The notes below the pieces were generated by a model. That model searched no databases. It was not told the origin of the DNA and saw nothing but the letters and a program-made list of their open reading frames with translations. 64,000 nucleotides of DNA from Alphaproteobacteria bacterium (GTDB lineage: Bacteria; Myxococcota_A; UBA796; GCA-2862545), in assembly GCA_020632925.1 (NCBI GenBank), contig JACKER010000007.1, positions 244,910 through 308,909 of the forward strand. Direction: 5' to 3'. Position numbers and translations under genes: made by a program. Of this stretch, positions 19,103-43,607 are shown in pieces. Position 1 is the stretch's first letter, and every line of letters begins with the position of its first letter.

Positions 19103-19111
19103 GCGGCGCGC

Positions 19112-23425: not shown

Positions 23426-23563
23426 GCAGCGCTCCCGGTCGTGCCAGTTAACGGATCCTCGGCAGCCGGTGCCAGGGGACGGTTGCTCGGGCGGGGTGGG
23501 CCGGATAACGCGGTGGGGTTGCGTGGTCGGCGTCGGCCGGGGTCACGCGAAGAGGAACCGACG

Positions 23564-26759: not shown

Positions 26760-26778
26760 CGTCGACCTCCCGGACGCT

Positions 26779-26808
26779 TGACGCTGCGCGTTCGCTGCCT
26801 CTATCCTC
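26779..26808 (+). promoter_or_regulatory. sigma70-like promoter for the spike gene
   Basis: TTGACG, an 18 nt spacer, then TATCCT, about 45 nt upstream of the ATG at 26852. Confidence 0.3.
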
Positions 26809-26851
26809 AGGGTGCGCCATCCTCAGCGTCCCATTCTGCGAGGCCCCTGCC

Positions 26852-29111: not shown

Positions 29112-31076
29112 CTACTGCTGCGTGTTGAACCGCAGCGTGGTGGTCTTGCCCGGCTCGAACGTGTGGCGCTCCGTGAGGTCGAGCCCGGTGGTCGGGTTGG
29201 CGGCGCGGATCTCGTGCGGCCCGGCAGGCACCTGGAGCTCCTTGAACGGAGCGGTCTTGGGGAGCTTCTCGCCGTCGACGTAGATGTTCGCCCACCCGCC
29301 GCCGAGCAGCGTCACGGTGAGCAGGGGCGGGCTCGCGACGGGCTTGAGGTTCGAGGAGATCCGGTTCGTTCCGGGCTTCACGCTGCGGACGCCCGTCTTC
29401 GCCGTCTCGTACCCGTCGAGCCGCAGGTCGATGTTCACGGCGTCGCCGACCGACACCTTGCTCCAGGTGCAGGGCGTGGTGCAGATCTGCTTGCCGTCGA
29501 GGAGCACGGCCGCGCCCGAGGGGCTCGAGCGGATATCGAGCTCCGGGGGACCGGTCGGCTCGGGGGCCTGCGTGGGCACCGGCTCCGTCGGCTGCGGATC
29601 CGGCGTCGCCACCGGGATCGCGGCCAGCTGCTTGACCACCTTCACGATGCGGCCCTGCTCGACGTTGACCGACTCCTCGAGCGGCTCGTATCCCTCGGCC
29701 TCGAGGCGGACCGTGTACGTCCCGGGGGCCATGTCCTCCAGCATCACGCTGGTCCCGTTGCCCTTCTCGACGCCGTCCACGAGCACGCGCGCCGCGGGGA
29801 AGACCGTCACGTCCAGGATCGTCCGCTCGGCCGGCTGGGTCACGATCACGCCGTTGGGCGGTGCGTTGGGCGGCGGCTGGGTCCACACGAAGTAGACGAT
29901 GGCGGCGAGCGTGAGCCCGCCGAGCACGAAGAGCCCCACGCTCGCCCCGGCGATCCAGGGGACGACCGCCTGGACCGCGGTCTGCGTCACGTGCGACAGC
30001 GTCTCGCCCTGGGTTCCCTCCCAGTCCGCCGGCGGGAGGGTGTCCTTGAGCTTGCGGGCGAGCGTCTCGCCCTGCTGCAGCCGCGTCCGCTCCGACGCGA
30101 TCTCCTCGGCGAAGCTCTCCTGCAGGTACGCCCGCATCTTCGCCTTGAGGGTGTCCGAGGTCTCGGGGAAGAGGAAGTCGCGGAGGTCGGACTCGAGGTC
30201 GGCGGCCGATGCGTACCGGATGTCGCGGTCGCGGGTCAGCGCCTTCATGCAGATCGACGCCAGCCGCTCGGGCAGATCGGGGCGGAGCGTCTCGGGCGGC
30301 GTCACGTCCGCTTCGCGGACCTTGTTCAGCGTCGCCGTCTCGGAATCGGTCCGGAACAGGCGGCGCCCCGTCATCGTCTCCCACAGGATGATGCCGAGGC
30401 TGAAGAGGTCCGAGCGATGGTCGATCTCCGAGCCCTGGGCCTGCTCGGGCGACATGTACTCGAACTTGCCCTTGAGCATCCCGTCGCGCGTCTGGTACGC
30501 GTTCGACTCGGCCTTCGCGATGCCGAAGTCGGCGATCTTGACCTCGCCCTCGTACGACAGCAGCACGTTCGACGGGGAGATGTCGCGGTGGACGATGCCG
30601 AAGGGGTTCCCCTCGAGGTCGGTCTTCGCGTGGGCGTAGTGCAGGCCCTTGCAGACCTCGAGCGCGATGTACGCGCAGAGCTCCGGGGGCATGAACTGCT
30701 TGCGACGGGAACCGGCGCGCAGGAGGAAGCGGACGTCCTTGCCGTCCACGCACTCCATGACGATGAACCAGTTCTGCTGGATCTTCCCGAAGTCGTAGAT
30801 CCGGACGATGTTCGGGTGCTGCAGCTGCACGCTGACCCGCGCCTCGTCCTGGAACATCTCGACGAAGTCGGGGTTGTCGCCGATGTGCGGCAGGATCCGC
30901 TTGATGACGACCAGGTTCTCGAAGCCGCCGTGCGAGAAGGTCTTCGCCTTGAAGATCTCGGCCATGCCTCCGGCAGCGATCTTGTCGACGAGGAAATACT
31001 TCCCGAACGCGACGGGCTGGAACGCGGCGGGCTCGTTCGGTGCGCTGGAGCTGGTCTCTGACACGTCGGCCCCCAT
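29112..31076 (-). CDS. Ser/Thr protein kinase with a TM helix and three extracytoplasmic PEGA-like domains
   Basis: It carries 'HRDISPSNVLL' and 'DFGIA'. The PEGA-like region includes 'RVLVDGVEKGNGTSVMLEDMAPGTYTVRLEAEGYEP'. Confidence 0.85.
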   Translation of the reverse strand: MGADVSETSSSAPNEPAAFQPVAFGKYFLVDKIAAGGMAEIFKAKTFSHGGFENLVVIKRILPHIGDNPDFVEMFQDEARVSVQLQHPNIVRIYDFGKIQQNWFIVMECVDGKDVRFLLRAGSRRKQFMPPELCAYIALEVCKGLHYAHAKTDLEGNPFGIVHRDISPSNVLLSYEGEVKIADFGIAKAESNAYQTRDGMLKGKFEYMSPEQAQGSEIDHRSDLFSLGIILWETMTGRRLFRTDSETATLNKVREADVTPPETLRPDLPERLASICMKALTRDRDIRYASAADLESDLRDFLFPETSDTLKAKMRAYLQESFAEEIASERTRLQQGETLARKLKDTLPPADWEGTQGETLSHVTQTAVQAVVPWIAGASVGLFVLGGLTLAAIVYFVWTQPPPNAPPNGVIVTQPAERTILDVTVFPAARVLVDGVEKGNGTSVMLEDMAPGTYTVRLEAEGYEPLEESVNVEQGRIVKVVKQLAAIPVATPDPQPTEPVPTQAPEPTGPPELDIRSSPSGAAVLLDGKQICTTPCTWSKVSVGDAVNIDLRLDGYETAKTGVRSVKPGTNRISSNLKPVASPPLLTVTLLGGGWANIYVDGEKLPKTAPFKELQVPAGPHEIRAANPTTGLDLTERHTFEPGKTTTLRFNTQQ

Positions 31077-31092
31077 AACCGCCGATCAGCGT

Positions 31093-31938
31093 TCAGGCGG
31101 TAGGATCGGCGGGGCGATGGGGACCGGGCGTCGCGATGCGGCTCGACAGGTCGAAAGCGGCGCCGTTCGAGAGGATGTGCAGACGCACCCCGACCAGCTC
31201 GACGGGATCGCCGACCTCGGACAGTGCCATCGAGCTGTACGCGAGCTGACTCACGTCGACGACGGTGATCCCGCCGCTGCCCACCACGTGCGCGTGGTCG
31301 CGGGGGTCGATGAACGCGGCGGTGTCCTCGTCGAGCCCGAAGCCGACGCTGAACGGGTTGTACGACAGCGCCGTCAGCAGGCGGCCGAGCCGGTCCCGCT
31401 CGCGGAAGTGCTGGTCGATGATGATGCGGTTGGTCAGCCCCAGGCCGGGCGCGAGCGCCACCTGGCCCGCCCGTGGGGTGGCGCCCGAGGCGCCGTGCGC
31501 GATCATGTGCTCGCAGATGAAGGCAGCGCCGGCCGAGGTCCCGGCGACGTGCACGCCGCGGGCGTTCATCCGCCGGATCCGGGTGGCGATGGGCGTGCCG
31601 CCGAGGATGGTGGACAGGCGCAGCTGGTTCCCGCCGGTCAGGAAGATGCCGGTCACGCCCTCGAGCGCGTCCGACCAGCGCTCCTCCTCCGCGTGCTTGC
31701 GCTCGGCCACGTCGACGACGACGACATCGGCGATCCCGAGCTCCCGGAACACCCGCTTGTACGCGTCGCCCGTCGTCGGGAGCAGCGAGGCGGTGGGGAG
31801 GACCGCCACCCGCCCCTCGGAGCCGCCGCAGAGCTCGACGAAGCGGGCGAGGATGCGGCGATCGGAGATCTTGTCCTCGGCGCCGCCGATGGGGACGACG
31901 TAGCCGCGCGCGCCGGGAGAGGGTGCTGGGGAGGGCAT
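31093..31938 (-). CDS. cphB: cyanophycinase (S51 peptidase)
   Basis: It carries the catalytic-Ser motif 'GTSAGA' and 'GGNQ'. Confidence 0.85.
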   Translation of the reverse strand: MPSPAPSPGARGYVVPIGGAEDKISDRRILARFVELCGGSEGRVAVLPTASLLPTTGDAYKRVFRELGIADVVVVDVAERKHAEEERWSDALEGVTGIFLTGGNQLRLSTILGGTPIATRIRRMNARGVHVAGTSAGAAFICEHMIAHGASGATPRAGQVALAPGLGLTNRIIIDQHFRERDRLGRLLTALSYNPFSVGFGLDEDTAAFIDPRDHAHVVGSGGITVVDVSQLAYSSMALSEVGDPVELVGVRLHILSNGAAFDLSSRIATPGPHRPADPTA

Positions 31939-32031
31939 TCCGTGCTCCGCGTGGGGTGGGACACCCGGGTACCTGTCCCCGGACCGCGCAGCAAGCCCTT
32001 CGGGTCACCCATCGGCTACACTGCGCCGGTG

Positions 32032-32799
32032 ATGTGGTGGTGGATGACCAGCGCCTGGGCGGAGTGCACCTTCCGCGCCGGGCTGTCCGAGGTGACGACC
32101 GCGCTCGATTCGGCCGAGCTGGCGTACGTCTCCCTCGATGTGGCGCTCTTCGAGAAGGCGACGACGGAGGTCGACTTCGTCGTGCCCTGCCTCGAGGCGC
32201 CGTTGGACGTGGCCACGGCCGCGCGGCTCCACCGGCTGCGCGGGCTCGGTCGGTTCGCCGAGGGCGACACCCGGGGCGCCGTGCTCGAGCTCAGCACGGC
32301 CCGCGTCCTCGAGCCGGCCTTCGTCTTCCCGCTCGAGATGCTCCCCGAGGGCTTCGAGCTGCGCGTGATCTACGAGGGCCTGCCCACCGAGGCCTCCGAC
32401 GAGGTCACGCGCCTGCCGCGTCCGCGTGGCGGGAGCCTCGTGCTGGACGGCGCCGTGGGCCGGGACCGCGCGGACGACCGCTCCGTGATCTTCCAGCGGG
32501 TGGAGGGCGACGCCATCGTCCAGACCGCGGTGCTCGCGCCCACCGATCCCGTGCCCTGGTACCCGGGCATCTCGAAGCGCAGGACGGTGCTCGCGGTGTC
32601 GAGCCTGGCGACGGCCGCGGTGGCGACGGGCTTCTACGCCGCGGCCCTGCAGTCCAACAGCCACCTGTCGGACGCGACGTCGGAGGAGGAGCTGTTGCGC
32701 CGCGCGGGCGTGACCAACGTGCTCGGCGGGATCGGACTCGGCCTGTACGGGCTGGCAGGGGTGGGCGGCGTGGCCGCGGTGGTGGTGGGGCGCCCGTGA
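32032..32799 (+). CDS. hypothetical protein with a C-terminal TM segment
   Basis: This is the last 255 aa of a 663 aa ORF, starting at 'MWWWMTSAWAE'. No family was recognised. Confidence 0.4.
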   Translation: MWWWMTSAWAECTFRAGLSEVTTALDSAELAYVSLDVALFEKATTEVDFVVPCLEAPLDVATAARLHRLRGLGRFAEGDTRGAVLELSTARVLEPAFVFPLEMLPEGFELRVIYEGLPTEASDEVTRLPRPRGGSLVLDGAVGRDRADDRSVIFQRVEGDAIVQTAVLAPTDPVPWYPGISKRRTVLAVSSLATAAVATGFYAAALQSNSHLSDATSEEELLRRAGVTNVLGGIGLGLYGLAGVGGVAAVVVGRP

Positions 32800-34454
32800 A
32801 GCGCCTGGCGCTCCTCGATCCCGGGACGCGCATCGATCGGTACGTGGTGCTCGACGTGATCGGCCAGGGCGGGATGGCCGTGGTGTACCGCGTGCGGCAC
32901 GAGAGCCTGGGCAGTGTGCACGCGCTCAAGGTCGTGGGTGTGCCGAGCCGGAGCATCATGCAGCGGCTGTTGGCCGAGGGGAAGGCGCAGGCCAGGGTCC
33001 GGCACCGCAACATCGTCGCCGTCCACGACGTGATCGAGGTCGACGGCTCGCCCGGGCTGGTGATGGAGTACGTCAACGGCCCCTCGCTCGACGGCCTCAT
33101 CCACCACGTGCAGCTGGACCTGGTCACCATCGATCGCATCGGTCGGGCCTTGCTGCGTGGGGTGCAAGCCGCCCACGACGCCGGGCTCATCCACCGCGAC
33201 CTCAAGCCCGCCAACGTCCTGGTTTCGCTCGAGGACGACGGGCTGATCCCGAAGATCGCGGACTTCGGGCTGGTGAAGGACGTGGCCGTGGGCGGCGACA
33301 CCCGCACCGGCTCGATGATGGGGACGCCGAACTACATGTCGCCGGAGCAGATCCGGGACACGAAGTCGGTCGACCACCGCACCGACCTGTTCGCGCTCGG
33401 CGCCATCCTGTACGAGCTGGTCACCCAGCGGCTGGCCTTCAGCGGCAACGACGTCCTCGACATCTTCAACCGCATCGACCGCGGGCAGTACACCCCCCTG
33501 GGCGAGCTGCGCCCCGACGTGCCGCAGCGGATGGTCGAGGCGATCGAGGGCGCGCTGGCGGTCGACCGGGACCGGCGTTGGCCGGGTTGCGCCCGGATGC
33601 TCGAGGTCTGGTGCGGCGACGTCCTGGACCAGCAGATCCCGGCGATCCAGCTGCCTGAGGACACGGTGGAGTGGATCCGCTCCAGCACGACGCTCGTGCC
33701 CGACAGCGTCCCGCCGACACCCGCCGGCACGGCCGTGCCACCCTCGGACGCCGCGGACTCCAACGCGCCGATGACCTGGGCACTGGACGGCGCGGTGAGC
33801 GAGGAGTCTCCGGCCCTGGATCTCGACGCACACGCGCGGCGGCCCGTCTGGCTGGTCGGGGCGGGTGTCGCTGGCCTGGCGCTGCTCTGCGCGGGCGGCC
33901 TGGGCCTCGGCCTGGTGGGGGGCGCGGGCTCCTGGTGGGCGAGCAGACCGCCAGATCCCGTCCCCGTCCCCGTCGCCGCTCCTCCTACGCCCGCTCCCGC
34001 TCCCGCTCCCGCTCCCGCTCCCGCTCCCGCTCCCGCTCCCGCTCCCGATCCCGCTCCCGCTCCCGCTCCCGATCCCGCTCCCGCGCCGACACCCACGCCC
34101 CCCAGCCCACACCCCACCCCAACACCCGTCCCCATCCCGACGCCGACGACGCCGGACCCCGCGCCCGTGCCGGTACCCGAGCCCGTCCCCGTCCCCGTCC
34201 CCGCGCCACCCTCCGCCACCACGACCGCCACGGTGGCCGTCCAGGGCGACGCGACCTCCGTGCTCCTGCGCGACGGCGCCGGCGGCTCGGTCGTCCCGGG
34301 TGGCTCCGTCCCGCCAGGGTCCTACACTGTCCTCGCGACCTTCCCCGGCGCCCAGGAACCCGTCCAGATCGCCACGGGTGTCGCCCTCGCGGCGGGTGAT
34401 CGCATCCTCATCGTTTGCCAGTCCCAGTTCCGTCGGTGCAACATCAGAAGATGA
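32796..34454 (+). CDS. Ser/Thr protein kinase with a TM helix, a Pro-Ala repeat linker and a C-terminal PEGA-like domain
   Basis: The GTG at 32796 overlaps the upstream stop as GTGA. It carries 'HRDLKPANVLV' and 'DFGLV'. Confidence 0.8.
   Translation: MKRLALLDPGTRIDRYVVLDVIGQGGMAVVYRVRHESLGSVHALKVVGVPSRSIMQRLLAEGKAQARVRHRNIVAVHDVIEVDGSPGLVMEYVNGPSLDGLIHHVQLDLVTIDRIGRALLRGVQAAHDAGLIHRDLKPANVLVSLEDDGLIPKIADFGLVKDVAVGGDTRTGSMMGTPNYMSPEQIRDTKSVDHRTDLFALGAILYELVTQRLAFSGNDVLDIFNRIDRGQYTPLGELRPDVPQRMVEAIEGALAVDRDRRWPGCARMLEVWCGDVLDQQIPAIQLPEDTVEWIRSSTTLVPDSVPPTPAGTAVPPSDAADSNAPMTWALDGAVSEESPALDLDAHARRPVWLVGAGVAGLALLCAGGLGLGLVGGAGSWWASRPPDPVPVPVAAPPTPAPAPAPAPAPAPAPAPAPDPAPAPAPDPAPAPTPTPPSPHPTPTPVPIPTPTTPDPAPVPVPEPVPVPVPAPPSATTTATVAVQGDATSVLLRDGAGGSVVPGGSVPPGSYTVLATFPGAQEPVQIATGVALAAGDRILIVCQSQFRRCNIRR
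33988..34086 (+). repeat. in-frame (cccgct)n hexanucleotide repeat encoding the PAPAPA linker
   Basis: About 15 tandem cccgct/cccgat units. Confidence 0.7.
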
Positions 34455-37342
34455 AGACCTTCCTCGATCCTCGCGTTCTGCTCACGCTCGTGCTGTTCGG
34501 CTGCCCGTTCGCCGGAGACGGACGACTGGATCGGGTGCGCGACGCGGATGGCGACAAGGACCCGGCGATCGCCTTCGGCGGGCACGACTGCGACGACACG
34601 AACCCGAACGTGAACTCCAACGCGGTCGAGGACTGGTCCAACGACATCGACGACGACTGCGACGGCAACGCGTTCGACCAGGACGGCGACGGGTATCAGC
34701 GCGACGTGGACTGCGACGACGAGGACGCTGCCGCGAACGTCGACCGCACCTGGTACGAGGATGGCGACGGCGACGGCTTCCGCGGCATGACCGGCGTGGT
34801 GTCCTGCCGCGCGCCCGGGGAGGGGTGGGTCGCCGAGCAGGGCACCGACTGCGACGACACCGACGCGCTCGCCTTCCCGCAGGCGCAGGAGACGCTGTGC
34901 GACGGGGTCGACAACGACTGCGACGCGGAGATCGACGAGTCCGACGACGTGACGTACACCTCGTGGTGGCCCGACCTCGACGGCGACCACTTCGGCGACC
35001 GCCGCGAGACCCCGGTGAGCACCTGCGACGGGGCGCCGGGTGTCGACTGGGCCGACAACCAGCTCGACTGCGACGACGCGGACGCGACCCGGAGCCCCGA
35101 CGCCGACGAGGTCTGCGACGACATCGACAACGACTGCGACGACGACGTGGACGAGCCCGGCGACGTCACCTGGACGACCTACTGGCTCGATCTGGACGGC
35201 GACGGCGCGGGGTACTCGGGGAACACCTGGTCCGCGCCCGGCGTGCCAGCGTTCACGGAGGATGCCGGCAGCCTGAGTTCCTGCGCCGAGTCCGCGCCAG
35301 CCGGGTACGCCGACAACCAGGACGACTGCGACGACAGCGATCCCGACGTGCAGTGGTTCACCTGGTACCCGGACGGCGACGGTGACGGCTACGGCGCCTC
35401 GGGGAGCCAGGGCGTCGACGGGTGCTTCGGTCCGGCCACGACGGTCGCCAACGACGACGACTGCGACGACGCGGACGCCGAGGAACACCCCGGAGCACGG
35501 TGGTACGACGACCTCGACGGGGACGGCTTCGGCGTGGCCGGCGCCCCCGTGACCAGCTGCACGCGCCCGGCCTCCAAGGTCGCCGACGCGACGGACTGCG
35601 ACGACGACGACCCCGACGTCCACCCCGGCGCCCCGGGCGAGCAGGTGCACGACGGGGTGGACACGAACTGCGACGACGCCACCGAGTTCGACGGCCCGGA
35701 CGCGAACGACCTGCCCGATCTGGCCTGCGGACCCACCATCGCGTACGACGTGGACCCGAGCACGCTCCAGCAGGCGCTCGACGCCGCGGGCACCTGCAAG
35801 GTGCTGATCATGCACGTCAGCGCCGACCAACACTTCTACGGACCGGTCACGCTGCCCGCCTCCGGGGAGATCGCGCTGATCGGGGCTCCGTTCGAGGACG
35901 TGGCGTTCGTGTCGCCGATCGGTGGTCAGGCCATCGTGGGACCGCCCGGCTCGTCGGTCGACCTGCTGATCGAGAAGGTCACGTTCCAGGGCTGGGACAC
36001 CGCGGTGGCCCTCAACGACGGCTCGCTGACGCTGTCCGAGGTCCTGGTGTCCGACGGCGAGGGGGTCACCCGGCGGACGGGCGGGGACGGCCTGGCCATC
36101 TACGACTCGGCCTTCACCGGCGTCGATCTGATCTACGACCCGAGCTGGACCGGCGGAGGCCGCTTCGCGGACGTGTCGGCCGAGCGGGTGGTCGCCGCGT
36201 TCGCCGTGGCGCCGCACGTGGTGTTGCTGGGGGGCACCAGCACGACGTCCTGGCGGGACCTCGTCGTCACGAACAGCGCCGCCATCGTCAGCGTCCTGCA
36301 GATCCCCGACCCGCTGTTCAGCGTCGCAGCACGGAACGTCGCGATCGACGGGTTGGTCGTCCGCGACTCGCTGGGTCGGGCGCTGGACGTGCCTTCCCGC
36401 AACGGCGACGACATCGTGCTGTGGAACGTCGCGCTCGACGGGAACATCTCCGTCGACCGCGGGCTGGTGGCGGTTCAGGGTCCCGGGTTGAGCCTCCAGG
36501 GCCCCACGCTCGACGTGGAGAACCTCGTCGCACGCGACAACACGATGGAGGTGTTCTCCGCGACCCAGAGCGACCTCCGCTCGCAGGCCATGTTCGACTT
36601 CACCGGCGTGGGCACCACGATGGAGGGCGTGACCCTCATCGGCAACGAGACGGGCGAGAGCTGGCTGCTCCAGGGCGAGGGCGCGGGATCCCACGTGGTG
36701 CTCGCGGGCACGGGCGACCGCGGGCTGCGGTTCGGCGGCACCCTCGACCACCTCACCTTCGTCGGGTTCGGCGCAGGCGTGGACGCCATCGACAGCTACC
36801 TCACGTCGGATCTGACGCTGCGCGACGCGATCGTGGACCAGTCCGGGACGGCGCCGCTGACCGCACGCCTCCACCTCGACCGGGTGATCATCGGGCCGGA
36901 CAGCGCGCTGACCTGTGGGCTGCTCGAGGCCTGCGTGGAGCGGACCGACCCGCTCTTCCTCCGGTACGACCCGCTCGCCCCCTCGGAGCTGTGGGACTTC
37001 CGCGTCCTGCCGCCGAGCCCCGCCATCGCGGGCGCGGGCAGCTGCCCGTTCACCGGCGCGTGCGATCTCGGCGCGTACACCCCGGCGAACGTGCCCGAGC
37101 AGTACGACGACGCCGACGGGGACGGCTTGTACGACACCTGGGAGGAGCAGTTCTTCGGCGACGCCGCGCTGTGTCTGCCGGGGCAGAACGCCGATGGCGA
37201 CGGCTTCACCAACGGCCAGGAGTTCTTCTCGGGTACGCTCCCGACCATGAGCGACTTCGATCTGGACGGGCTCCTCGACGGTCCGGCGGACACCCCGACC
37301 GAGGACTGGGACCAGGCGCCCTGGGATCCTGCACACGGATGA
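34451..37342 (+). CDS. large secreted lipoprotein with N-terminal Cys/Asp-rich putative metal-binding (MopE-like) repeats, a central parallel beta-helix-like region and a thrombospondin-type-3-like calcium-binding C-terminus
   Basis: The ATG overlaps the kinase stop as ATGA. The lipobox 'LVLFGCPFAG' is present. About 6 repeats of 'DCDDxD..P(G/A)A.E.CDG.DNDCD' follow. The C-terminus has 'DADGDGLYDTWEEQFFGD...NADGDGFTNGQEFF'. Confidence 0.65.
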   Translation: MKTFLDPRVLLTLVLFGCPFAGDGRLDRVRDADGDKDPAIAFGGHDCDDTNPNVNSNAVEDWSNDIDDDCDGNAFDQDGDGYQRDVDCDDEDAAANVDRTWYEDGDGDGFRGMTGVVSCRAPGEGWVAEQGTDCDDTDALAFPQAQETLCDGVDNDCDAEIDESDDVTYTSWWPDLDGDHFGDRRETPVSTCDGAPGVDWADNQLDCDDADATRSPDADEVCDDIDNDCDDDVDEPGDVTWTTYWLDLDGDGAGYSGNTWSAPGVPAFTEDAGSLSSCAESAPAGYADNQDDCDDSDPDVQWFTWYPDGDGDGYGASGSQGVDGCFGPATTVANDDDCDDADAEEHPGARWYDDLDGDGFGVAGAPVTSCTRPASKVADATDCDDDDPDVHPGAPGEQVHDGVDTNCDDATEFDGPDANDLPDLACGPTIAYDVDPSTLQQALDAAGTCKVLIMHVSADQHFYGPVTLPASGEIALIGAPFEDVAFVSPIGGQAIVGPPGSSVDLLIEKVTFQGWDTAVALNDGSLTLSEVLVSDGEGVTRRTGGDGLAIYDSAFTGVDLIYDPSWTGGGRFADVSAERVVAAFAVAPHVVLLGGTSTTSWRDLVVTNSAAIVSVLQIPDPLFSVAARNVAIDGLVVRDSLGRALDVPSRNGDDIVLWNVALDGNISVDRGLVAVQGPGLSLQGPTLDVENLVARDNTMEVFSATQSDLRSQAMFDFTGVGTTMEGVTLIGNETGESWLLQGEGAGSHVVLAGTGDRGLRFGGTLDHLTFVGFGAGVDAIDSYLTSDLTLRDAIVDQSGTAPLTARLHLDRVIIGPDSALTCGLLEACVERTDPLFLRYDPLAPSELWDFRVLPPSPAIAGAGSCPFTGACDLGAYTPANVPEQYDDADGDGLYDTWEEQFFGDAALCLPGQNADGDGFTNGQEFFSGTLPTMSDFDLDGLLDGPADTPTEDWDQAPWDPAHG

Positions 37343-39678
37343 GACCGCTCGTCGCCCTCTTCCTCGTCGGCTGCCCGTTCGTGGGCGAAGATCGGCTCGC
37401 CGGGATCCGGGACGCGGACGGCGACGGCGATCCGGCCGAGCAGTTCGGCGGCAACGACTGCGACGACGGGGACCCGCTCGTGAGCTCGTTGATGACGGAG
37501 GACTGGTCCAACGACATCGACGACGACTGCGATGGCAACGCGTTCGACCAGGACGGGGACGGCTACCTGCGAGGGACGGACTGCGACGACACGGATGCGA
37601 CCGTGAACGTCGAGCGGACCTGGTACGCGGACGAGGACGGCGACGGCGTCGTCGGCGCCACCCCCTACGTCGCGTGCATCCCCGAGGACGGCTCCTCGGC
37701 CGACCCTGGCCCCGACTGCGACGACCAGGACCCGACGGTCGCGCTGGTCACGCTGTTCCGGGACGCCGACGGCGACGGGTACGGCGACCCGGCGACCACG
37801 ACCACCGACCACTGCGAGCCCGTCGAGGGGTGGGTCCCGACCTCCGGGGACTGCGACGACACCGATCCGGAGCAGCGACCGGGGGCGTCGTGGCACGACG
37901 ACGCCGACGGGGACGGCTTCGGGGCGGAGCAGGTCGCGTCCGTCGGCTGCGAGCGTCCGACCGGGCGCATCACCGACGACAGCGACTGCGACGACCGGGA
38001 CGCGAGCGTTCACCCTGGCGCTTCCGGCGAGCAGCTGCACGACGGGGTCGACACCGACTGCGACGACGGCAGCGAGCTCCCCGAGCTGGCGTGTGGGCCG
38101 ACCCCGATCGACGTGTATCCGGACGACATCCAGTCGCGACTGTCGTCGGGTGGGGACTGCCAGGCCCTCGTCCTGCACGTCGACGCCGCTCGCCCCGTCT
38201 ACGGACCCATCGTGCTCCCGGACGACGCGCGCATCTCGCTCGTCGGGGCCCCCTTCGAGGCCGTCGCCTTCGGCACCCCGATCGGCGGTGTCGCCATCAG
38301 CGGCGCTCCCGCGTTGCTCCAGATCGAGAAGGCGACGTTCGTGGGGTGGGACACGGCGGTCGCCGTGGGCGGAGGGTCGGTCACGTTGTCCGAGGTGCTC
38401 GTCGACGCCGGGGAGGTCGTGCGGGCCGACGCCCTCGCGGACGAGCTCACGATCTACGACTCGGTCTTCTCGGGGGTCGACCTGGTCTACGATCCCGACT
38501 GGGCCGGACCGGGCACCTTCGACGACGTCCTGGTCGAGCGGTCCTTCGTGGCTTCCGCCGTCGCGCCCCACGCCGTGCTGGACGGCGGCCGGAGCTCGAC
38601 CACCTGGCGCGACCTGGTGATCGCGAACAGCGCCGCCACCGTCAGCCTCCTGACCGTGCCGGTCGGTCCTACGGGCCGCGCGATCACGATCGAGGATCTG
38701 TGGGTCCAGGACTCGCTCGGCCGGGCGCTCGAGGCCGAGCTGCGCGACCAGGACGCGCTCGCGCTGAACGACATCACGCTGGTGGGCAACATCTCGGTGG
38801 ATCGCGGGCTGGTGGCGGTCACCGGGTCCGGGGGCGCCACGCTCGGGGTCAGCGGGTTCAGCGCCCGCCAGAACACGATGGAGGTGTTCTCGGGCGTGCT
38901 GAGCGACCTGCGTGAGCAGGCGATGTTCGACTTCGGACCCGGCACGGGCACGCTGCAGGACGTGTGGCTGCTCGGGAACGTGACGGGGGAGAGCTGGCTG
39001 TTCCAGGGCAAGGGGACGGGCTCGAACCTGCTGTTCGCGGGGACCGGGGAGCGGGGCTTCCGGTTCAACGGCGCCATGGACCACGTGACCGTCGTCGGGT
39101 TCGGAGAGGGGGTGCCCTCCGTGGACGGGATCTCGCTCGGTCTCCGGCTCTCCGACGCCATCGTCGCCGACTTGGGCACGGACTTCCCCGAGGTGCTCGT
39201 CCGCATGGACCGCGTGATGATCGCGCCGGGGTCCGCGGTGACCTGCGGGCCCAACGACGCGGACTGCCTCACCGGCGTCGACCCGATGCTGCTCCGCTAC
39301 GACCGCGCCGCTCCTTCGGAGCTGTGGGACCTGCGGGTCGGCCCGGACAGCCCGGCCATCGCGCCACGCGCGACCTGCACGTTCGCGGGGACGGCCTGCG
39401 ACCTCGGGGGCCTCACGCCGGTGAACGCGCCGATCGCCTACGCGGACACGGACGGCGACGGCATGTACGACACCTGGGAGACGCAGTTCTTCGGCGACGT
39501 GGCGAGCTGTGGTCCCGCGCAGAACCCGGACGGCGACGGGTACACCAACGTCGAGGAGTTCGCTTCGGGGACCCTGCCGACCGCGGCGGACTTCGACCTG
39601 GACGGGCTGCCCGACGGCGCCCCGGACGGCGTCGGAGGGACCTGGGACGACGCGCCCTGGGACCCGTCGGGCGGCTGA
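37339..39678 (+). CDS. tandem paralog of the preceding lipoprotein with the same domain order
   Basis: The ATG overlaps the upstream stop as ATGA. The lipobox 'LFLVGCPFVG' is present. Repeat and C-terminal blocks are collinear ('DTDGDGMYDTWETQFFGD'). Confidence 0.65.
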   Translation: MRPLVALFLVGCPFVGEDRLAGIRDADGDGDPAEQFGGNDCDDGDPLVSSLMTEDWSNDIDDDCDGNAFDQDGDGYLRGTDCDDTDATVNVERTWYADEDGDGVVGATPYVACIPEDGSSADPGPDCDDQDPTVALVTLFRDADGDGYGDPATTTTDHCEPVEGWVPTSGDCDDTDPEQRPGASWHDDADGDGFGAEQVASVGCERPTGRITDDSDCDDRDASVHPGASGEQLHDGVDTDCDDGSELPELACGPTPIDVYPDDIQSRLSSGGDCQALVLHVDAARPVYGPIVLPDDARISLVGAPFEAVAFGTPIGGVAISGAPALLQIEKATFVGWDTAVAVGGGSVTLSEVLVDAGEVVRADALADELTIYDSVFSGVDLVYDPDWAGPGTFDDVLVERSFVASAVAPHAVLDGGRSSTTWRDLVIANSAATVSLLTVPVGPTGRAITIEDLWVQDSLGRALEAELRDQDALALNDITLVGNISVDRGLVAVTGSGGATLGVSGFSARQNTMEVFSGVLSDLREQAMFDFGPGTGTLQDVWLLGNVTGESWLFQGKGTGSNLLFAGTGERGFRFNGAMDHVTVVGFGEGVPSVDGISLGLRLSDAIVADLGTDFPEVLVRMDRVMIAPGSAVTCGPNDADCLTGVDPMLLRYDRAAPSELWDLRVGPDSPAIAPRATCTFAGTACDLGGLTPVNAPIAYADTDGDGMYDTWETQFFGDVASCGPAQNPDGDGYTNVEEFASGTLPTAADFDLDGLPDGAPDGVGGTWDDAPWDPSGG

Positions 39679-39684
39679 GCGCGG

Positions 39685-40803
39685 TCAGAGCACCCAACGG
39701 CCGTGCGCGAGGACGCGGCTGACCGAGAGGTCCTCGCCCAGCACGACCAGGTCGGCGTCCGCTCCAGCCGCGATCCGCCCCTTGCCCTCGAAGCGATAGA
39801 GCGCTGCCGGGTTCGTCGTCACCGGCGCGAGCGCGCGTTCGGGCGGGACCCCCGCGGCCAGCAGCCCGCGCACGACGCCCAGCAGGCCCTCGGCGTCGCC
39901 GACCTCCATGTGGAGCAGCTTCCCGTCGCGGTCGAACGTCGGCAGGCAGCCCCCGGCATCCGACGACAGCGTGATGCGCGCCGGATCCCGGCCCTCGGTC
40001 AGGTAGCGGAGCACCGCGGCCGTCGGGTCGACGGTGCCGTCGTCGTAGGGGGGAGGGAAGGCGCTCACGTCGATCCAGCCGCCGTCGTCGGACCAGGCCA
40101 GCGCCTCCTCCCACAGCCGGGGGTTGCGGTTCACGTGTGTCGGGTGGAACACCCGCCGGGGGAGCTCCGTCTCCGCTGCCGCCCGGCGCAGCAGCTCGAG
40201 CCCGCGCCGGCCGTCGCCCAGGTGCAGGTGGACCAGACCCGCCTTGCGGCTCATCATGCCCGCGACGTGGGCGTCCGCGGCGACGCGCAGCAGCTCGTCG
40301 TAGGTCGGCTGGCTCGAGCGGTGGTCGGAGATGGCGACCTCGCCGACCGCCACGATCGTGGGCACGTGGACGATGTCGCCGCGCACCGAGCCGGTCAGCG
40401 TCGGCGGGGGGACCTCGTACCCTCCGGTGTGGATCCACGCAGACAGGCCCATCGCGCGGACCGCGTGGGCGCAGGCCAACAGCTCGCCGATCGTGCGCGT
40501 CGTGCAGTCCGTGCCGAGCAGGCCGACCGCGGTGGTGACGCCGGACCGCGCCAGCGACGCCGGCACCAGCGGCGGGACGCGGGTCTCGGGGCCGCCCTCC
40601 CCACCACCGCCGGTCAGGTGGACGTGGAGGTCGACCAGACCCGGGATCAGCGTGCAGCCGTCGAGGTCGACGACGTCCACACCCCAGCCGGGCGGGGGCT
40701 CGGCGGGCACCCCCAGGGCGAGCACGCGCCCGCCCCCGACGAGGACCGTGGTCGTTCCCAGGTCCTCGGGGGCCCAAACGCGGGCGCCGCGCAGCAGCAG
40801 CAT
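39685..40803 (-). CDS. iadA: isoaspartyl dipeptidase (beta-aspartyl dipeptidase)
   Basis: It carries 'HVHLTGGGGEGGPETR', 'AISDHRS', 'PTHVNRN' and 'TLSSD'. These match my memory of E. coli IadA. The ATG overlaps the cphA stop as ATGA. Confidence 0.8.
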   Translation of the reverse strand: MLLLRGARVWAPEDLGTTTVLVGGGRVLALGVPAEPPPGWGVDVVDLDGCTLIPGLVDLHVHLTGGGGEGGPETRVPPLVPASLARSGVTTAVGLLGTDCTTRTIGELLACAHAVRAMGLSAWIHTGGYEVPPPTLTGSVRGDIVHVPTIVAVGEVAISDHRSSQPTYDELLRVAADAHVAGMMSRKAGLVHLHLGDGRRGLELLRRAAAETELPRRVFHPTHVNRNPRLWEEALAWSDDGGWIDVSAFPPPYDDGTVDPTAAVLRYLTEGRDPARITLSSDAGGCLPTFDRDGKLLHMEVGDAEGLLGVVRGLLAAGVPPERALAPVTTNPAALYRFEGKGRIAAGADADLVVLGEDLSVSRVLAHGRWVL

Positions 40804-43607
40804 CAGTCGTTCGGCTCGGGCGCGCGGGCCACCCGGACCCCACGCTCGTCCATCACCAGCGCGCCCTGCGGCAGCTGGACGACGACGGGCTCCGGAGCCG
40901 GCGGCGCCGGGCGCCAGGCGGGCTGCTCCACGACCTGGACCGCGCCGTCGTGCTCGCGGCCGTAGTAGATGATCTGCTTCCAGCAGCGCGTGAGCTGATC
41001 ACCGAAGACCAGCAGCAGATCGCCCTCTCGGCAGCTGCGCAGCCCCATGTCGAGCGCCTCGATCTCGTCGGGGACGATGTGGACCGCCGCGGGCTGGACC
41101 CCGGCCTCGAGCAGCGCGTCGCGCATCAGCTTCGCCACCGCGCCGCGGTCGCGGCCGCGCGCGTCGTCGTCCTCCTTGCAGATGAACAGGTCGAACGAGC
41201 AGGACGCCCGCGCGGCGATGCGCTGGATGTCCTCGTCGCGGCGGTCGCCGGGGGCGGTGAGCAGGACCACGCGCTTCGTGCGCATCCCGGTCCCGTCCGA
41301 CAGGCGGTCGACCAGGTTGCACATCGCCTCGATCGCGTGCGGGTTGTGGCCGTAGTCGAGGATGACCTTGAAGCCGAGCTCGTCGTAGACGTTCATCCGG
41401 CCCGGCGCCTGGAAGAAGCTGTTGTCGAAGGTCCGGAGCCCGTGGCGGATGTCGTCCAGCTTCACGCCCATCGCCCAGGCCATCGCGGCCGCGAACATCG
41501 CGTTCTGGACGTTGTGGATGGCCTTGCCCTCCATCGTCGCCGGGATGAGGTGGGTCCACAGCAGCGGCATGTGCGACATCCGGTCGTAGATGGTGATCAT
41601 CTGACCGTTGACCCCACCCTCGAGCCCCACGGCCAGCCCGCCCTGCCGGATGTGCTCGCGCACCAGCTCGTGCTGGGGGTTCATCGTCACGTACGCGACG
41701 CGCCGGGCCTCGCTGTGGTCCGCCATCGCGAGGCAGAGCGGGTCGTCGGCGTTGAGCACCACGCAGTCGGACGCGACCTCGATCGGGATGCGCTTGACCT
41801 CGGCGAGCTGCTCGAGCGTGTGGATGCCGCCCAACCCGAGGTGGTCGCCGGCGACGTTGAGGCAGCAGGCCACGTCGGGGTGCCTGTACCCCATGCCGGC
41901 GCGGAGCAGGCCGCCGCGCGCGGTCTCGAGCACGGCGACCGTGACCTTCGGGTCGCGGAGCACCATCTGGGCGCTGATCGGTCCGGTCATGTCGCCCGGG
42001 ACCGTGCGGTTGCCGTCGACGTAGACGCCGTCGGTCGTGGTCAGGCCGACGACCGCGCCGGCCATCTTGTGGATGTGCGCGAGCATGCGGCTCGTCGTCG
42101 TCTTGCCGTTGGTCCCCGTCACGGCGGCGATGGGGATGCGCGTCGGCGTGCCCGGGGGGAACAGCATCTCCATGACGGCGCCCGCCACGTCGCGGGGGTG
42201 ACCCTCCGAGGGCGCGACGTGCATCCGGAAGCCGGGTGCGGCGTTGACCTCGCAGATCCCGCCGCCGACATCGGTCCAGGAGCGCGTGATGTCCGGCGTC
42301 AGGAAGTCCACGCCGCACACGTCCAGCCCCACGGCGGCCGTCGCCCGCTCCGCCATCTCGCGGTTGTCGGGGTGGATCATGTCCGTCACGTCGATCGCGG
42401 TGCCGCCCGTGGACAGGTTCGCCGTCGACCGGAGGTAGAAGACCTCTCCGGCGGTCAGCACGCTCTCCGCCGTCTTGCCGGCGGCCGCGAGCAGCCGCTG
42501 GGCCTGTCCGTCGAGCTCGAGGCGCGTCAGCACCTTCTCGTGCCCGATGCCGCGCCGGGGATCGAGGTTCACGAGGTCCACGAGCTGCGCGACCGTGTGC
42601 TGTCCGTCGCCGACCACGTGCCCCGGCACGCGCTTGCTCGCGGCCACGAGCCGCCCGTCCACCACCAGCAGCCGGTGGTCGAAGCCCTCCACGCACTGCT
42701 CGACCAGCACGACCCGCGAGTGCTCGCGCGCGACCGCGAAGGCGTCGGACACGGCCTGCTCGCCCTCGATCCCGATGGTGATGCCCCGACCGTGGTTGGC
42801 GTCGAGCGGCTTGACCACGACCTTGCCGCCGATGCGCTGCCAGGCGCGGACGGCCTCCTCGCCGGTACGGACCTGGATCTGCTTGGGCACGGGCAGCCCC
42901 ATGTCCGCGAGGATCCGGTTCGTGAGGTTCTTGTCCGACGCGATCTCGACGCCGATGTTCTTGGTCTCGCTCGTCACCGTTGCCCAGATGCGCTTCTGGC
43001 GGCACCCGTGGCCGAACTGGACGAGGGACGCGTCACCGATGCGCAGCCAGGGGATGTCCCGAGCCTCGGCCGCCCGCACCAGCGAGGCCGTGGAGGGCCC
43101 GAACGCGCGGCTCTGCGTCTCGAGGATGAGATCCTCGAGCTCCATCGCGAAGTCGAAGCCGGGCTCCGGCGGCGCGTCGGGGTGCAGCGCCTCGGGGATG
43201 ATGTGGTGGAGGAGTCGGAGCGCCAGCTCGCCCGCCGCCATGCCCACCCAGGGGTCCTCGTACTCGTAGACGACGTGGTACTGCCCGACCTCGCCCGACC
43301 CCCGGGTCTTGCCGAAGGTCACGGGGAAGCCCGCGAGGTGCTGGAGCTCGATCGCGACGTGCTCGAGCACGTGGCCCATCCAGGTGCCGCCGTCCTCCCG
43401 CAGCCGCCGGACGAAGCCGCCGGGCTCGCCGTAGGAGCAGCCGTGGTCGCCCAGGCCGGGCAGCAGCTGCAGGAGCTGATCCACGAAGCCCGGGATCGCC
43501 GCGGACGGGTGGTCCTCGAGCGGGCCGAGGTCGAGCAGGAAGCGGATCACGCGGAAGTGCGCGTACAGGTTCGGGCCGAGGTAGGTACGGCGCTCGAGGA
43601 TGCGCAT
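40803..43607 (-). CDS. cphA: cyanophycin synthetase
   Basis: It has an ATP-grasp domain followed by a Mur-ligase domain ('VTGTNGKTTT'). Confidence 0.9.
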   Translation of the reverse strand: MRILERRTYLGPNLYAHFRVIRFLLDLGPLEDHPSAAIPGFVDQLLQLLPGLGDHGCSYGEPGGFVRRLREDGGTWMGHVLEHVAIELQHLAGFPVTFGKTRGSGEVGQYHVVYEYEDPWVGMAAGELALRLLHHIIPEALHPDAPPEPGFDFAMELEDLILETQSRAFGPSTASLVRAAEARDIPWLRIGDASLVQFGHGCRQKRIWATVTSETKNIGVEIASDKNLTNRILADMGLPVPKQIQVRTGEEAVRAWQRIGGKVVVKPLDANHGRGITIGIEGEQAVSDAFAVAREHSRVVLVEQCVEGFDHRLLVVDGRLVAASKRVPGHVVGDGQHTVAQLVDLVNLDPRRGIGHEKVLTRLELDGQAQRLLAAAGKTAESVLTAGEVFYLRSTANLSTGGTAIDVTDMIHPDNREMAERATAAVGLDVCGVDFLTPDITRSWTDVGGGICEVNAAPGFRMHVAPSEGHPRDVAGAVMEMLFPPGTPTRIPIAAVTGTNGKTTTSRMLAHIHKMAGAVVGLTTTDGVYVDGNRTVPGDMTGPISAQMVLRDPKVTVAVLETARGGLLRAGMGYRHPDVACCLNVAGDHLGLGGIHTLEQLAEVKRIPIEVASDCVVLNADDPLCLAMADHSEARRVAYVTMNPQHELVREHIRQGGLAVGLEGGVNGQMITIYDRMSHMPLLWTHLIPATMEGKAIHNVQNAMFAAAMAWAMGVKLDDIRHGLRTFDNSFFQAPGRMNVYDELGFKVILDYGHNPHAIEAMCNLVDRLSDGTGMRTKRVVLLTAPGDRRDEDIQRIAARASCSFDLFICKEDDDARGRDRGAVAKLMRDALLEAGVQPAAVHIVPDEIEALDMGLRSCREGDLLLVFGDQLTRCWKQIIYYGREHDGAVQVVEQPAWRPAPPAPEPVVVQLPQGALVMDERGVRVARAPEPND

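What the first reader, a model, noticed from the sequence alone, without database searches (positions are those of the whole stretch)
32796..39678. Ser/Thr kinase translationally coupled to two tandem giant paralogous lipoproteins with MopE-like Cys/Asp repeats, a beta-helix and a TSP3-like Ca-binding tail
Three consecutive genes overlap by ATGA: the kinase stop with lipoprotein 1 start (34451), and lipoprotein 1 stop with lipoprotein 2 start (37339). Both lipoproteins, about 963 and 779 aa, have the same four-part order:
- a lipobox;
- about 6 copies of 'DCDDxDxxxxPGAxExCDGxDNDCD';
- a central region of about 500 aa with parallel-beta-helix-like periodicity ('LTLSEVLV', 'NISVDRGLVAV', 'NTMEVFS');
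- a C-terminus with DxDGDG thrombospondin-type-3-like calcium-binding motifs.
From memory, the Cys/Asp repeat resembles the myxobacterial 'putative metal-binding motif' related to the copper protein MopE. Tight coupling of two secreted paralogs to a membrane kinase suggests a cell-surface sensing or adhesion module. The function is unknown.
Basis: partly seen in the sequence, partly recalled or inferred. Interest (0 to 1): 0.6.

Follow-up and report, generated by a model that had tools for sequence, protein, structure and literature searches.

The report
Kinase operon with beta-helix lipoproteins
A four-gene operon from an uncultured myxobacterium-like bacterium links a small membrane protein and a membrane Ser/Thr kinase to two paralogous calcium-repeat, beta-helix lipoprotein-like proteins; the same gene neighbourhood recurs in four other lineages, so it is probably one cell-envelope sensing unit, built from ordinary domain types.

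Summary
The kinase (32796-34454), lipoprotein 1 (34451-37342, 963 aa) and lipoprotein 2 (37339-39678, 779 aa) overlap by ATGA. The two lipoproteins are 51% identical paralogs.

Each has four parts:
- a short lipobox-like N-terminus;
- Pfam PF11617 Cys/Asp repeats interleaved with DxDGDG loops;
- a body of about 450 aa;
- a tail that resembles the bacterial TSP3 repeat.

A secreted, membrane-anchored protein of about 255 aa (about 32032-32799) overlaps the kinase start by GTGA. This pair, with the same overlap, recurs in all five related loci that show the upstream region.

The beta-helix body is a very rare orphan family; I found nine proteins. In five lineages a member sits beside the small-protein/kinase pair, once on the opposite strand.

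My best reading is an envelope sensing cassette in which the lipoprotein is the extracytoplasmic partner of the kinase. That step is inferred. Calcium is a more likely ligand than copper. I rate it a new variant of known kinds, of moderate interest.

The parts
32032..32799 (+). It has a short signal peptide (A-W-A|E-C), a periplasmic domain of about 170 aa with two invariant Cys, and two C-terminal hydrophobic helices (residues 186-206 and 230-254). The start is uncertain: GTG 31951, GTG 32029 or ATG 32032. The stop TGA at 32797-32799 overlaps the kinase GTG.
   Evidence: The codon-position GC plot shows + strand coding from about 32000. Translation is and the GTGA overlap. There is no Pfam, NCBIfam or PDB match. 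Homologs at 45-54% identity sit in the same position, with the same (A/G)TGA overlap, in L007, L008, L009, L013 and L014.
32796..34454 (+). Gene 2: a Hanks-type Ser/Thr kinase of 552 aa. The catalytic domain is at 32841-33581, the single TM helix at 33840-33932, a Pro/Ala/Thr/Val-rich linker of about 100 aa at 33936-34229, and an extracytoplasmic beta-domain of about 74 aa ending in C-x6-C at 34230-34451.
   Evidence: Pkinase scores 1e-44. GQGG, ALK, HRD and DFG are present, the TM helix spans residues 349-379, and 88% of the linker is P/A/T/V. Relatives share the C-terminal domain and its Cys pair. Pfam sees no PEGA domain here, but some relatives carry PF08308 or PF13620.
34451..37342 (+). 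Gene 3: lipoprotein 1, 963 aa. The signal and lipobox (Cys18) are at 34451-34504, the Cys/Asp (PF11617) and DxDGDG repeat region at about 34535-35680, the beta-helix body at 35711-37090, and the TSP3_bac-like tail at 37091-37339.
37339..39678 (+). Gene 4: lipoprotein 2, 779 aa, a paralog of lp1 that lacks about 160 aa of its repeats. The signal and lipobox (Cys12) are at 37339-37374, the repeats at about 37405-38070, the beta-helix body at 38077-39429 and the tail at 39430-39675. A convergent gene ends 6 nt downstream.
   Evidence: It is identical to the database protein P0002, named 'MAG: hypothetical protein H6735_01230'. No alternative in-frame start occurs in the 40 codons upstream. An ortholog, P0001, is 69% identical and has conserved downstream synteny.
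31939..32031 (.). Short divergent intergenic region between the minus-strand S51 peptidase gene (start 31938) and gene 1. It is the only obvious place for the operon's promoter.
   Evidence: No sigma-70-like site was found, but the scan is uninformative at 72% GC.

Best explanation
**Shown**
- Four co-directional genes with 4-nt start/stop overlaps encode proteins that all carry extracytoplasmic parts with conserved cysteine pairs.
- Gene 1 encodes a secreted domain of about 170 aa, held in the inner membrane by a C-terminal helical hairpin.
- Gene 2 encodes an intact Hanks-type Ser/Thr kinase. Its catalytic domain is cytoplasmic. A proline-rich linker of about 100 residues carries a small C-terminal beta-domain outside the membrane.
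- Genes 3 and 4 encode two paralogous lipobox-bearing proteins. Each has disulfide-stapled Asp-rich repeats (PF11617 motif plus DxDGDG loops), a right-handed parallel beta-helix and a short bacterial-TSP3-like tail.
- The small-protein/kinase pair is constant across relatives. A lipoprotein of this rare family lies beside the pair in five lineages.

**Inferred**
- The operon is one envelope-sensing cassette.
- The lipoprotein sits on the outer membrane or cell surface and is stiffened by calcium. It uses its beta-helix face to bind a polymeric ligand, most likely a glycan of the matrix, the cell wall or prey.
- It reports ligand occupancy or mechanical load to the periplasmic domains of the small protein and/or the kinase. 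The kinase's long linker could span the periplasm.
- The kinase then phosphorylates cytoplasmic targets.
- In logic this resembles lipoprotein-to-inner-membrane-kinase relays such as RcsF-IgaA-RcsC/D or NlpE-CpxA, but with a eukaryote-like kinase.
- The duplication into lp1 and lp2 would give two ligand specificities or a heteromeric receptor.
For: **Anatomy:**

- adhesins: Vag8, PfbA, EtpA;
- NosD.

**Conserved linkage:**
- L005: the kinase ends 2 nt before a family lipoprotein.
- L008: small protein, kinase and lipoprotein, all overlapping.
- L013: the same order, with 27% identity to lp1 over the full length.
- L014: the lipoprotein is divergently adjacent to the small-protein/kinase pair.

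**Phylogeny:** in a neighbour-joining tree, lipoprotein-linked kinases are interleaved with unlinked ones, which suggests an old linkage.

**Small protein and kinase:** the pair, with an (A/G)TGA overlap, occurs in 6 of 6 loci where DNA upstream of the kinase could be read.

**Cysteines:** conserved pairs occur in all three protein types.

**Selection:** dN/dS is 0.36 between lp2 and its ortholog.
Against: - No direct evidence exists for interaction, co-transcription, lipidation or localisation.
- Three kinase-clade loci (the P0152 locus, L007, L009/L010) have the small protein and the kinase but no lipoprotein within 6-8 kb.
- One family lipoprotein, P0114, stands alone with no kinase nearby. 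The lipoprotein is therefore dispensable for the kinase, and the kinase for the lipoprotein.
- Relatives without lipoproteins also carry the kinase's C-terminal domain, so it is not a dedicated docking domain.
- Myxobacterium-like genomes carry very many Ser/Thr kinases, three in this window alone. That raises the chance of adjacency, although not of repeated adjacency to a family this rare.
- The signal peptides are atypically short, with 10-17 residues before the Cys.
Confidence: 0.45

Rival explanations
1. The lipoproteins share a transcript with the kinase but work independently. They are surface adhesins or secreted or surface glycan-binding or glycan-degrading proteins (lyase, hydrolase or epimerase-like beta-helices). 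They serve matrix remodelling, attachment or predation. The kinase neither senses through them nor controls them directly.
For: The best structural matches are capsule depolymerases, tailspikes, alginate epimerases or lyases and GH87 glucanases, as well as adhesins. Beta-helix domains joined to TSP3_bac repeats are a very common architecture in large secreted proteins: 6539 profile hits through the tail, and beta-helix or pectinesterase domains in the sampled hits. The lipoprotein occurs alone in L006, and the kinase pair occurs without a lipoprotein in three loci.
Against: A family for which only nine proteins were found lies beside the same kinase clade in five lineages, including one rearranged locus. 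That is hard to explain without functional dependence. No known catalytic motif is conserved: the D-P-x-W stretch of lp1 and lp2 is absent from P0082, P0114 and the L008 protein. No carbohydrate-active Pfam family matches.
Confidence: 0.3
2. Polymorphic cell-surface recognition proteins, used for kin or partner recognition or as phage or predator decoys. The fast-evolving, duplicated beta-helix lipoproteins would act as variable receptors, with the kinase signalling contact.
For: The genes are tandemly duplicated. dN/dS is fairly high for bacterial genes at 0.36-0.50. The distribution is very patchy and family members have diverged to 26-29% identity. The lipoproteins are Cys-rich repeat stalks, as in other myxobacterial surface receptors (PMC12045341 and bioRxiv 10.1101/2023.10.19.562135, found).
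Against: No toxin/immunity pair or sorting tag such as MYXO-CTERM was seen. dS is under-estimated at about 95% GC3, so dN/dS is inflated. Divergence is spread evenly over the domains rather than concentrated in a variable head. There are no population data.
Confidence: 0.1
3. MopE-like copper handling: the Cys/Asp repeats bind copper and the operon senses or scavenges copper.
For: Pfam names the matching motif Cu-binding_MopE (PF11617), and both proteins pass its threshold.
Against: The invariant residues of the repeat region in the six-member alignment are Asp, Cys, Gly, Pro, Trp, Arg, Ala, Val and Thr. There is no His or Met. From memory of Helland et al. 2008, which is listed in the references of PMC3278476, MopE binds copper through two His and an oxidised Trp. 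The repeat region shows no sequence similarity to any PDB chain at E <= 1. The interleaved D-x-D-G-D-G loops fit the DxDxDG calcium-binding pattern, the same pattern invoked for Ca-dependent CglD. No copper-homeostasis genes lie nearby.
Confidence: 0.05

Closest known systems
Myxococcus xanthus CglD, a surface-exposed outer-membrane lipoprotein of the gliding focal-adhesion machinery (bioRxiv 10.1101/2023.10.19.562135)
   Same: It is a large lipoprotein from a myxobacterium. It has many DxDxDG (thrombospondin/COMP-type) calcium loops and a Cys-rich region, and is proposed to have mechanosensory or adhesive surface roles.
   Different: The functional head of CglD is a von Willebrand A / beta-integrin-like domain, not a beta-helix. 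It works with the Glt motility complex, not with a Ser/Thr kinase operon. I tested no sequence homology between the two.
Right-handed parallel beta-helix (pectin-lyase fold) glycan-active proteins and adhesins: Klebsiella K1 depolymerase or lyase (9k4a, 7w1c), AlgE4 epimerase A-module (2pyg), GH87 glucanase (7c7d), NosD (7o0y), Vag8, PfbA, EtpA
   Different: Sequence identity is only 9-20%. The body matches no Pfam or PDB sequence. The catalytic motifs of these enzymes are not conserved across the family. Foldseek TM-scores are low, at 0.3-0.4.
Pfam PF11617 'putative metal-binding motif' (Cu-binding_MopE) repeat proteins of Myxococcota
   Same: Both lipoproteins score above the gathering threshold with several repeats. 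NCBI names the ortholog P0001 'putative metal-binding motif-containing protein'.
   Different: Only some units carry the full C-D-G-x-D-N-D-C-D half; the others continue as W-Y-x-D-x-D-G-D-G-F/Y-G loops. There is no similarity to the solved MopE chain and no His is conserved.
Lipoprotein-to-kinase envelope stress relays (RcsF-IgaA-RcsC/D and NlpE-CpxA of enterobacteria). This is an analogy drawn from general knowledge.
   Same: The proposed logic is the same: a lipoprotein sensor, an inner-membrane intermediary with a periplasmic domain, and a membrane kinase.
   Different: Those systems use histidine kinases and unrelated proteins, and their genes are not arranged as one coupled operon. No homology is claimed, and the relay here is untested.
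Receptor-type Hanks kinases with extracytoplasmic sensor domains (PknB/Stk1 with PASTA domains; myxobacterial kinases with PEGA domains)
   Same: The layout is the same: an N-terminal cytoplasmic kinase domain, one TM helix and a C-terminal extracytoplasmic domain. The best NCBIfam match is the PASTA kinase model, through the kinase domain only (203 bits against a cut-off of 450).
   Different: There are no PASTA domains. The C-terminal domain of about 74 aa with C-x6-C is not recognised by Pfam in this protein. The obligatory upstream small-protein partner is not a feature of PknB systems.

Membership tests
Hanks-type (eukaryote-like) Ser/Thr protein kinase, Pfam PF00069 | Pfam Pkinase score above the gathering threshold | tested here: met
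   153.4 bits against a cut-off of 31.7, E = 1e-44, residues 16-262.
Hanks-type (eukaryote-like) Ser/Thr protein kinase, Pfam PF00069 | Catalytic motifs intact: Gly-rich loop, the Lys of VAIK, HRD, DFG and the (A/S)PE motif | tested here: met
   GQGG at 23, ALK at 43, HRD at 133, DFG at 156 and SPE at about 182-184.
PF11617 putative metal-binding motif (Cu-binding_MopE) | Pfam score above the gathering threshold of 27 bits | tested here: met
   lp1 scores 77 bits and lp2 42.2 bits. Each N-terminal region alone gives 5 matched stretches.
MopE-type copper site | Conserved copper ligands (two His and an oxidised Trp in MopE, recalled from Helland et al. 2008) and similarity to the solved MopE structure | tested here: not met
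   No His is invariant in the repeat region of the six-member alignment. phmmer of the lp1 repeat region against all PDB sequences finds nothing at E <= 1. Metal binding itself cannot be tested here.
Right-handed parallel beta-helix (pectin-lyase-like fold) | Sequence-profile match (Pfam Beta_helix PF13229 or related) | tested here: not met
   lp1 has no hit. One of 5 family members matches, at E = 0.036. There is no PDB sequence hit.
Right-handed parallel beta-helix (pectin-lyase-like fold) | Three-dimensional fold | tested here: met
Polysaccharide lyase / glycoside hydrolase / C5-epimerase beta-helix enzymes | Family-specific catalytic residues conserved | tested here: inconclusive
   No carbohydrate-active Pfam family matches. 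The family-invariant polar residues are E508, D552, R579, N697, N732, R838 and D849 in lp1 numbering. I could not map them onto the model or onto any known active site.
Bacterial TSP3 repeat, Pfam PF18884 | Pfam score above the gathering threshold of 25 bits | tested here: not met
   The lp2 tail scores 24.2 bits (E = 3e-5) and the lp1 tail 15.5 bits (E = 0.016).
Bacterial TSP3 repeat, Pfam PF18884 | Reciprocal similarity to proteins that carry the repeat | tested here: met
   The family profile hits 6539 proteins through tail positions of about 445-515, with E as low as 1e-105. All five hits I sampled carry PF18884 at 1e-17 to 1e-46.
Eukaryotic thrombospondin type 3 repeat, Pfam PF02412 | Pfam match | tested here: not met
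   E = 2.7 and 8.2 bits, for lp2 only.
Bacterial lipoprotein (signal peptidase II substrate) | A lipobox [LVI][ASTVIF][GAS]C after a hydrophobic segment, near the N-terminus | tested here: inconclusive
   L-F-G-C (Cys18) and L-V-G-C (Cys12) are present, and 'GCP' is conserved across the family. The peptides are very short: 9-17 residues before the Cys, and this is confirmed for P0114 by an in-frame stop 4 codons upstream. By my own reading they fail PROSITE PS51257's position and charge rule. No dedicated predictor was available.
PEGA / CarboxypepD_reg-like domain (kinase C-terminus) | Pfam PF08308 or PF13620 match | tested here: not met
   There is no hit at E <= 10 for residues 440-552. Several homologous kinases do carry PF08308 or PF13620 in the precomputed annotation, so a distant relationship is possible.

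The most novel reading that the evidence does not exclude
This is a previously undescribed three-component, trans-envelope signalling system of Myxococcota-like bacteria. An outer-membrane or surface beta-helix lipoprotein, stiffened by calcium repeats, acts as the ligand- or force-sensing receptor. A dedicated small hairpin-anchored periplasmic protein acts as the adaptor. A eukaryote-like Ser/Thr kinase on a long proline-rich tether acts as the transducer. It would be the Hanks-kinase counterpart of lipoprotein-driven histidine-kinase relays, and a bacterial parallel to matrix-receptor signalling.
Probability: 0.3. Interest if true: 0.6.

Novelty: new variant of a known kind. Interest (0 to 1): 0.4.

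Why it matters
Myxobacteria and their relatives encode about a hundred eukaryote-like kinases each. For very few of these are the input signals or partner proteins known. A gene cassette that repeatedly ties one kinase clade to a specific small periplasmic protein and a specific surface beta-helix lipoprotein gives a concrete, testable candidate for how such a kinase receives an extracellular signal. It also defines two orphan protein families, the small partner protein and the beta-helix body, which current domain libraries do not cover. All the building blocks are familiar, so the value lies in the wiring, not in a new kind of molecule.

Tried and rejected
- **Long + strand ORF 30808-32799.** It looked like a 663-aa fourth gene. 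Codon-position GC shows that everything upstream of about 32000 is the shadow of two real minus-strand genes, so only the last 255 codons or so are coding.
- **First AlphaFold run.** With three close sequences it gave pLDDT 43 and was discarded. Adding two members at about 29% identity raised it to 76.
- **Searches for more lipoprotein relatives.**
  - The word-indexed search returned only 2-3 proteins.
  - The species-representative genome scan found only tail-level or partial matches.
  - Two scans of JGI metagenome contigs found nothing.
  - One call failed because the alignment had no conserved stretch.
  - The further members came from the full HMMER scan and from walking the neighbourhoods of kinase homologs.
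- **Body of the lipoprotein.** Its profile matched nothing significant in PDB sequences, in Pfam, or in the bodies of the 150 tail-matched proteins.
- **Small protein.** Its profile found nothing in PDB.
- **AlphaFold database library (afdb50).** It was unavailable for fold search.
- **Promoter and terminator scan.** It found nothing and is uninformative at 72% GC.
- **Literature searches.** They found no description of this operon or family.
- **Copper.** Rejected as the likely ligand, for the reasons given under the rival explanations.


Full report
**1. What is in the sequence**

The window is 72% G+C, so long open frames occur on every strand. I therefore called genes by codon-position GC.

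- a kinase at 32796 (GTG) to 34454;
- lipoprotein 1 (lp1) at 34451-37342, 963 aa;
- lipoprotein 2 (lp2) at 37339-39678, 779 aa.

ATGA start/stop overlaps sit at 34451 and 37339. The coding frame switches exactly at these junctions. lp2 has no other in-frame start in the 40 codons upstream.

From about 32000 to 32799 the + strand is coding in the frame of the long ORF 30808-32799. Upstream of 32004 that ORF is only the shadow of two real minus-strand genes. The real product has about 255 aa, starting at ATG 32032, or possibly GTG 31951 or 32029. Its TGA overlaps the kinase GTG, giving GTGA at 32796-32799.

The operon ends at lp2, because a convergent gene stops 6 nt downstream.

**2. The four proteins**

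*Gene 1.* It matches nothing in Pfam, NCBIfam or PDB. It has:
- a short signal peptide with an A-x-A cleavage site followed by C-T-F;
- a domain of about 170 aa with two invariant Cys;
- two C-terminal hydrophobic helices.

*Gene 2.* This is an intact Hanks-type Ser/Thr kinase. Pkinase scores 1e-44, and GQGG, ALK, HRD, DFG and SPE are all present. It has one TM helix at residues 349-379 and a linker of about 100 residues that is 88% Pro/Ala/Thr/Val. It ends in a domain of about 74 aa that closes with C-x6-C. Relatives share this terminal domain. Pfam does not recognise it in this protein, but labels it PEGA or CarboxypepD_reg in some homologs.

*Genes 3 and 4.* lp1 and lp2 are 51% identical. 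lp1 carries about 160 extra residues of repeats. Both begin with a lipobox-like motif, L-F-G-C at Cys18 and L-V-G-C at Cys12.

*Repeat region.* It passes Pfam PF11617, at 77 and 42 bits against a cut-off of 27. D-C-D-D-x-D-x4-P is followed either by the C-D-G-x-D-N-D-C-D half or by W-Y-x-D-x-D-G-D-G-F/Y-G...C.

The region carries a net charge of -101 in lp1 and -58 in lp2. Its invariant residues are Asp, Cys, Gly, Pro, Trp, Arg, Ala, Val and Thr, with no His. It resembles no solved structure in sequence. I therefore read it as a disulfide-stapled array of DxDxDG-type calcium loops, not as a copper site. The metal itself is untested.

*Tail.* It falls just under the Pfam threshold for the bacterial TSP3 repeat PF18884: 24.2 bits for lp2 and 15.5 for lp1, against a cut-off of 25. 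It does not match the eukaryotic TSP_3 family. The reciprocal evidence is strong. A family profile hits 6539 proteins through the tail positions alone, and all five hits I sampled carry PF18884.

**3. The central body is a beta-helix, shown by structure and not by sequence**

The body of about 450 aa matches nothing in Pfam; Beta_helix appears in only 1 of 5 members, at E = 0.036. It also matches no PDB sequence and none of the bodies of the 150 tail-matched proteins.

An AlphaFold model built from three close sequences failed, with pLDDT 43. Adding two members at about 29% identity gave pLDDT 76.2 and pTM 0.78.

- GH87 glucanase, NosD, and the adhesins Vag8, PfbA and EtpA.

Foldseek agrees on the fold class but with low TM-scores of 0.3-0.4. 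The fold is well supported. No particular enzyme family is.

**4. How rare the family is, and what it sits next to**

In about 15 billion proteins, the body profile found only the window's two genes, P0001, P0082 and P0114. Two metagenome scans and one genome scan added nothing. Walking the neighbourhoods of kinase homologs added three more members: L008:6088-8601, L013:7748-10684 and L014:2880-5180.

| Locus | Arrangement |
|---|---|
| Window | small protein > kinase > lp1 > lp2, all overlapping |
| L005 | kinase (5'-truncated contig) ends 2 nt before the lipoprotein |
| L008 | small protein > kinase > lipoprotein, overlaps of 4 and 1 nt |
| L013 | same order, 31-nt gap before the lipoprotein |
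| L014 | lipoprotein divergent from, and 45 nt away from, small protein > kinase |
| L001 | ortholog of lp2 at a contig end, same downstream genes as the window |
| L006 | P0114 stands alone, no kinase nearby |

Conversely, three kinase-clade loci have the small protein and the kinase but no lipoprotein within the flanks: the P0152 locus, L007 and L009/L010.

The small protein is 45-54% identical across loci. It always ends in an (A/G)TGA overlap with the kinase start. More distant kinases, at about 50% identity in the catalytic domain, lack it.

In a rough neighbour-joining tree, lipoprotein-linked and unlinked kinases are interleaved. This fits an old linkage with later losses better than repeated gains.

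**5. Selection**

Nei-Gojobori dN/dS is 0.36 for lp2 against its ortholog and 0.50 for lp1 against lp2. It is similar across the repeats, the body and the tail. The genes are under purifying selection but evolve fairly fast. With about 95% GC3, dS is under-estimated, so these ratios are upper bounds.

**6. Interpretation**

The anatomy and the conserved neighbourhood are shown. The following is inferred.

The cassette is one envelope-sensing unit. A calcium-stiffened, lipid-anchored beta-helix protein binds a polymeric ligand outside the cell. It communicates with the periplasmic parts of the small protein and/or the kinase, and the kinase's long proline-rich tether could cross the periplasm. 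I put this at about 0.45.

The rivals are:
- Independent surface adhesins or glycan-active enzymes that merely share a transcript with the kinase (0.3). The enzyme-rich list of structural neighbours favours this, as does the fact that each partner can occur without the other.
- A polymorphic recognition role (0.1).
- A MopE-like copper role (0.05).

**7. Comparison with what is known**

Each domain type is familiar. Beta-helix domains joined to TSP3_bac repeats are a common architecture for secreted proteins.

The nearest characterised myxobacterial analogue is CglD, a surface lipoprotein with DxDxDG/COMP-like calcium repeats and a Cys-rich stalk, but with a VWA head and no kinase partner. In logic, the proposed relay resembles RcsF-IgaA-Rcs or NlpE-CpxA. 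That comparison is an analogy from general knowledge, not homology.

Literature searches found no description of this cassette or of either orphan family.

**8. Verdict**

The amendments are four genes rather than three, calcium rather than copper, and fold evidence from structure rather than from HMMs. This is a new variant of known kinds, of moderate interest (0.4). Its value is as a testable kinase-input hypothesis and as the definition of two uncatalogued families.

Noticed in passing
window 31096-31938 (-), 39688-40803 (-), 40806-43607 (-); L001: Cyanophycin-metabolism genes bracket the operon. An S51 peptidase (the cyanophycinase family) lies divergently upstream. An amidohydrolase and a cyanophycin synthetase (Cyanophycin_syn + ATP-grasp + Mur ligase domains) lie convergently downstream. 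The downstream pair is syntenic in the Myxococcales MAG contig L001. The kinase operon looks as if it was inserted into a cyanophycin gene cluster.
   Followed up: partly
window 29115-31076 (-); L007 5817-7133 (-); P0152 locus: A second Ser/Thr kinase, with two PEGA domains, lies divergently upstream. In L007 and in the P0152 locus a kinase on the opposite strand sits directly next to the small-protein gene. This may be a recurrent divergent kinase pair.
   Followed up: partly
window 34451-34504, 37339-37374, about 32032-32067; L006 10001; L009 5739: The signal peptides in this gene set are remarkably short. Only 9-12 residues precede the lipobox Cys or the A-x-A site, and some lack any basic residue (for example MLWPVFLLAGC). 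For P0114 an in-frame stop 4 codons upstream rules out a longer N-terminus.
   Followed up: partly
window 26639-27745 (+): This gene has a phage baseplate / type VI spike OB domain (Phage_base_V). It lies in the lowest-GC stretch of the window (0.675) and has atypical codon-position GC (GC1 0.57). It may be foreign DNA. Separately, in L008 the gene after the family lipoprotein carries an eCIS_core domain.
   Followed up: no
window 15764-19111 (-): A third Ser/Thr kinase in the window, 1116 aa, with a C-terminal WD40 beta-propeller. This fits a kinase-rich, myxobacterium-like genome.
   Followed up: no
window 37339-39678 (database entry P0002): The source MAG is labelled 'Alphaproteobacteria bacterium' (locus tag H6735_01230). 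The closest relatives of its proteins are in Myxococcales/Myxococcota MAGs, and the gene content (many Hanks kinases, PF11617 repeats, 72% GC) looks myxobacterial. The taxonomic label may be wrong.
   Followed up: no
window 30808-32004 (+): The first 1.2 kb or so of a 663-codon + strand ORF is a non-coding shadow of two minus-strand genes. Only its last 255 codons or so are a real gene. This is a trap for ORF-based annotation at this GC content.
   Followed up: yes
L014 13049-13521 (-) and 8565-12092 (-): The L014 contig carries a second protein with PF11617 and Beta_helix domains, close to another Ser/Thr kinase with TPR repeats. The pairing of kinase genes with MopE-repeat beta-helix proteins may extend beyond this one clade.
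   Followed up: no
L011 3501-4484; L012 7718-8704: The more distant kinase relatives P0161 and P0163 lack the upstream small protein. Each is instead followed by an unannotated gene of about 327 aa, possibly a different dedicated partner.
   Followed up: no
window 20792-23542 (-): A 917-aa protein with strong coding signal (GC3 0.96) has no Pfam match at E <= 1e-4.
   Followed up: no
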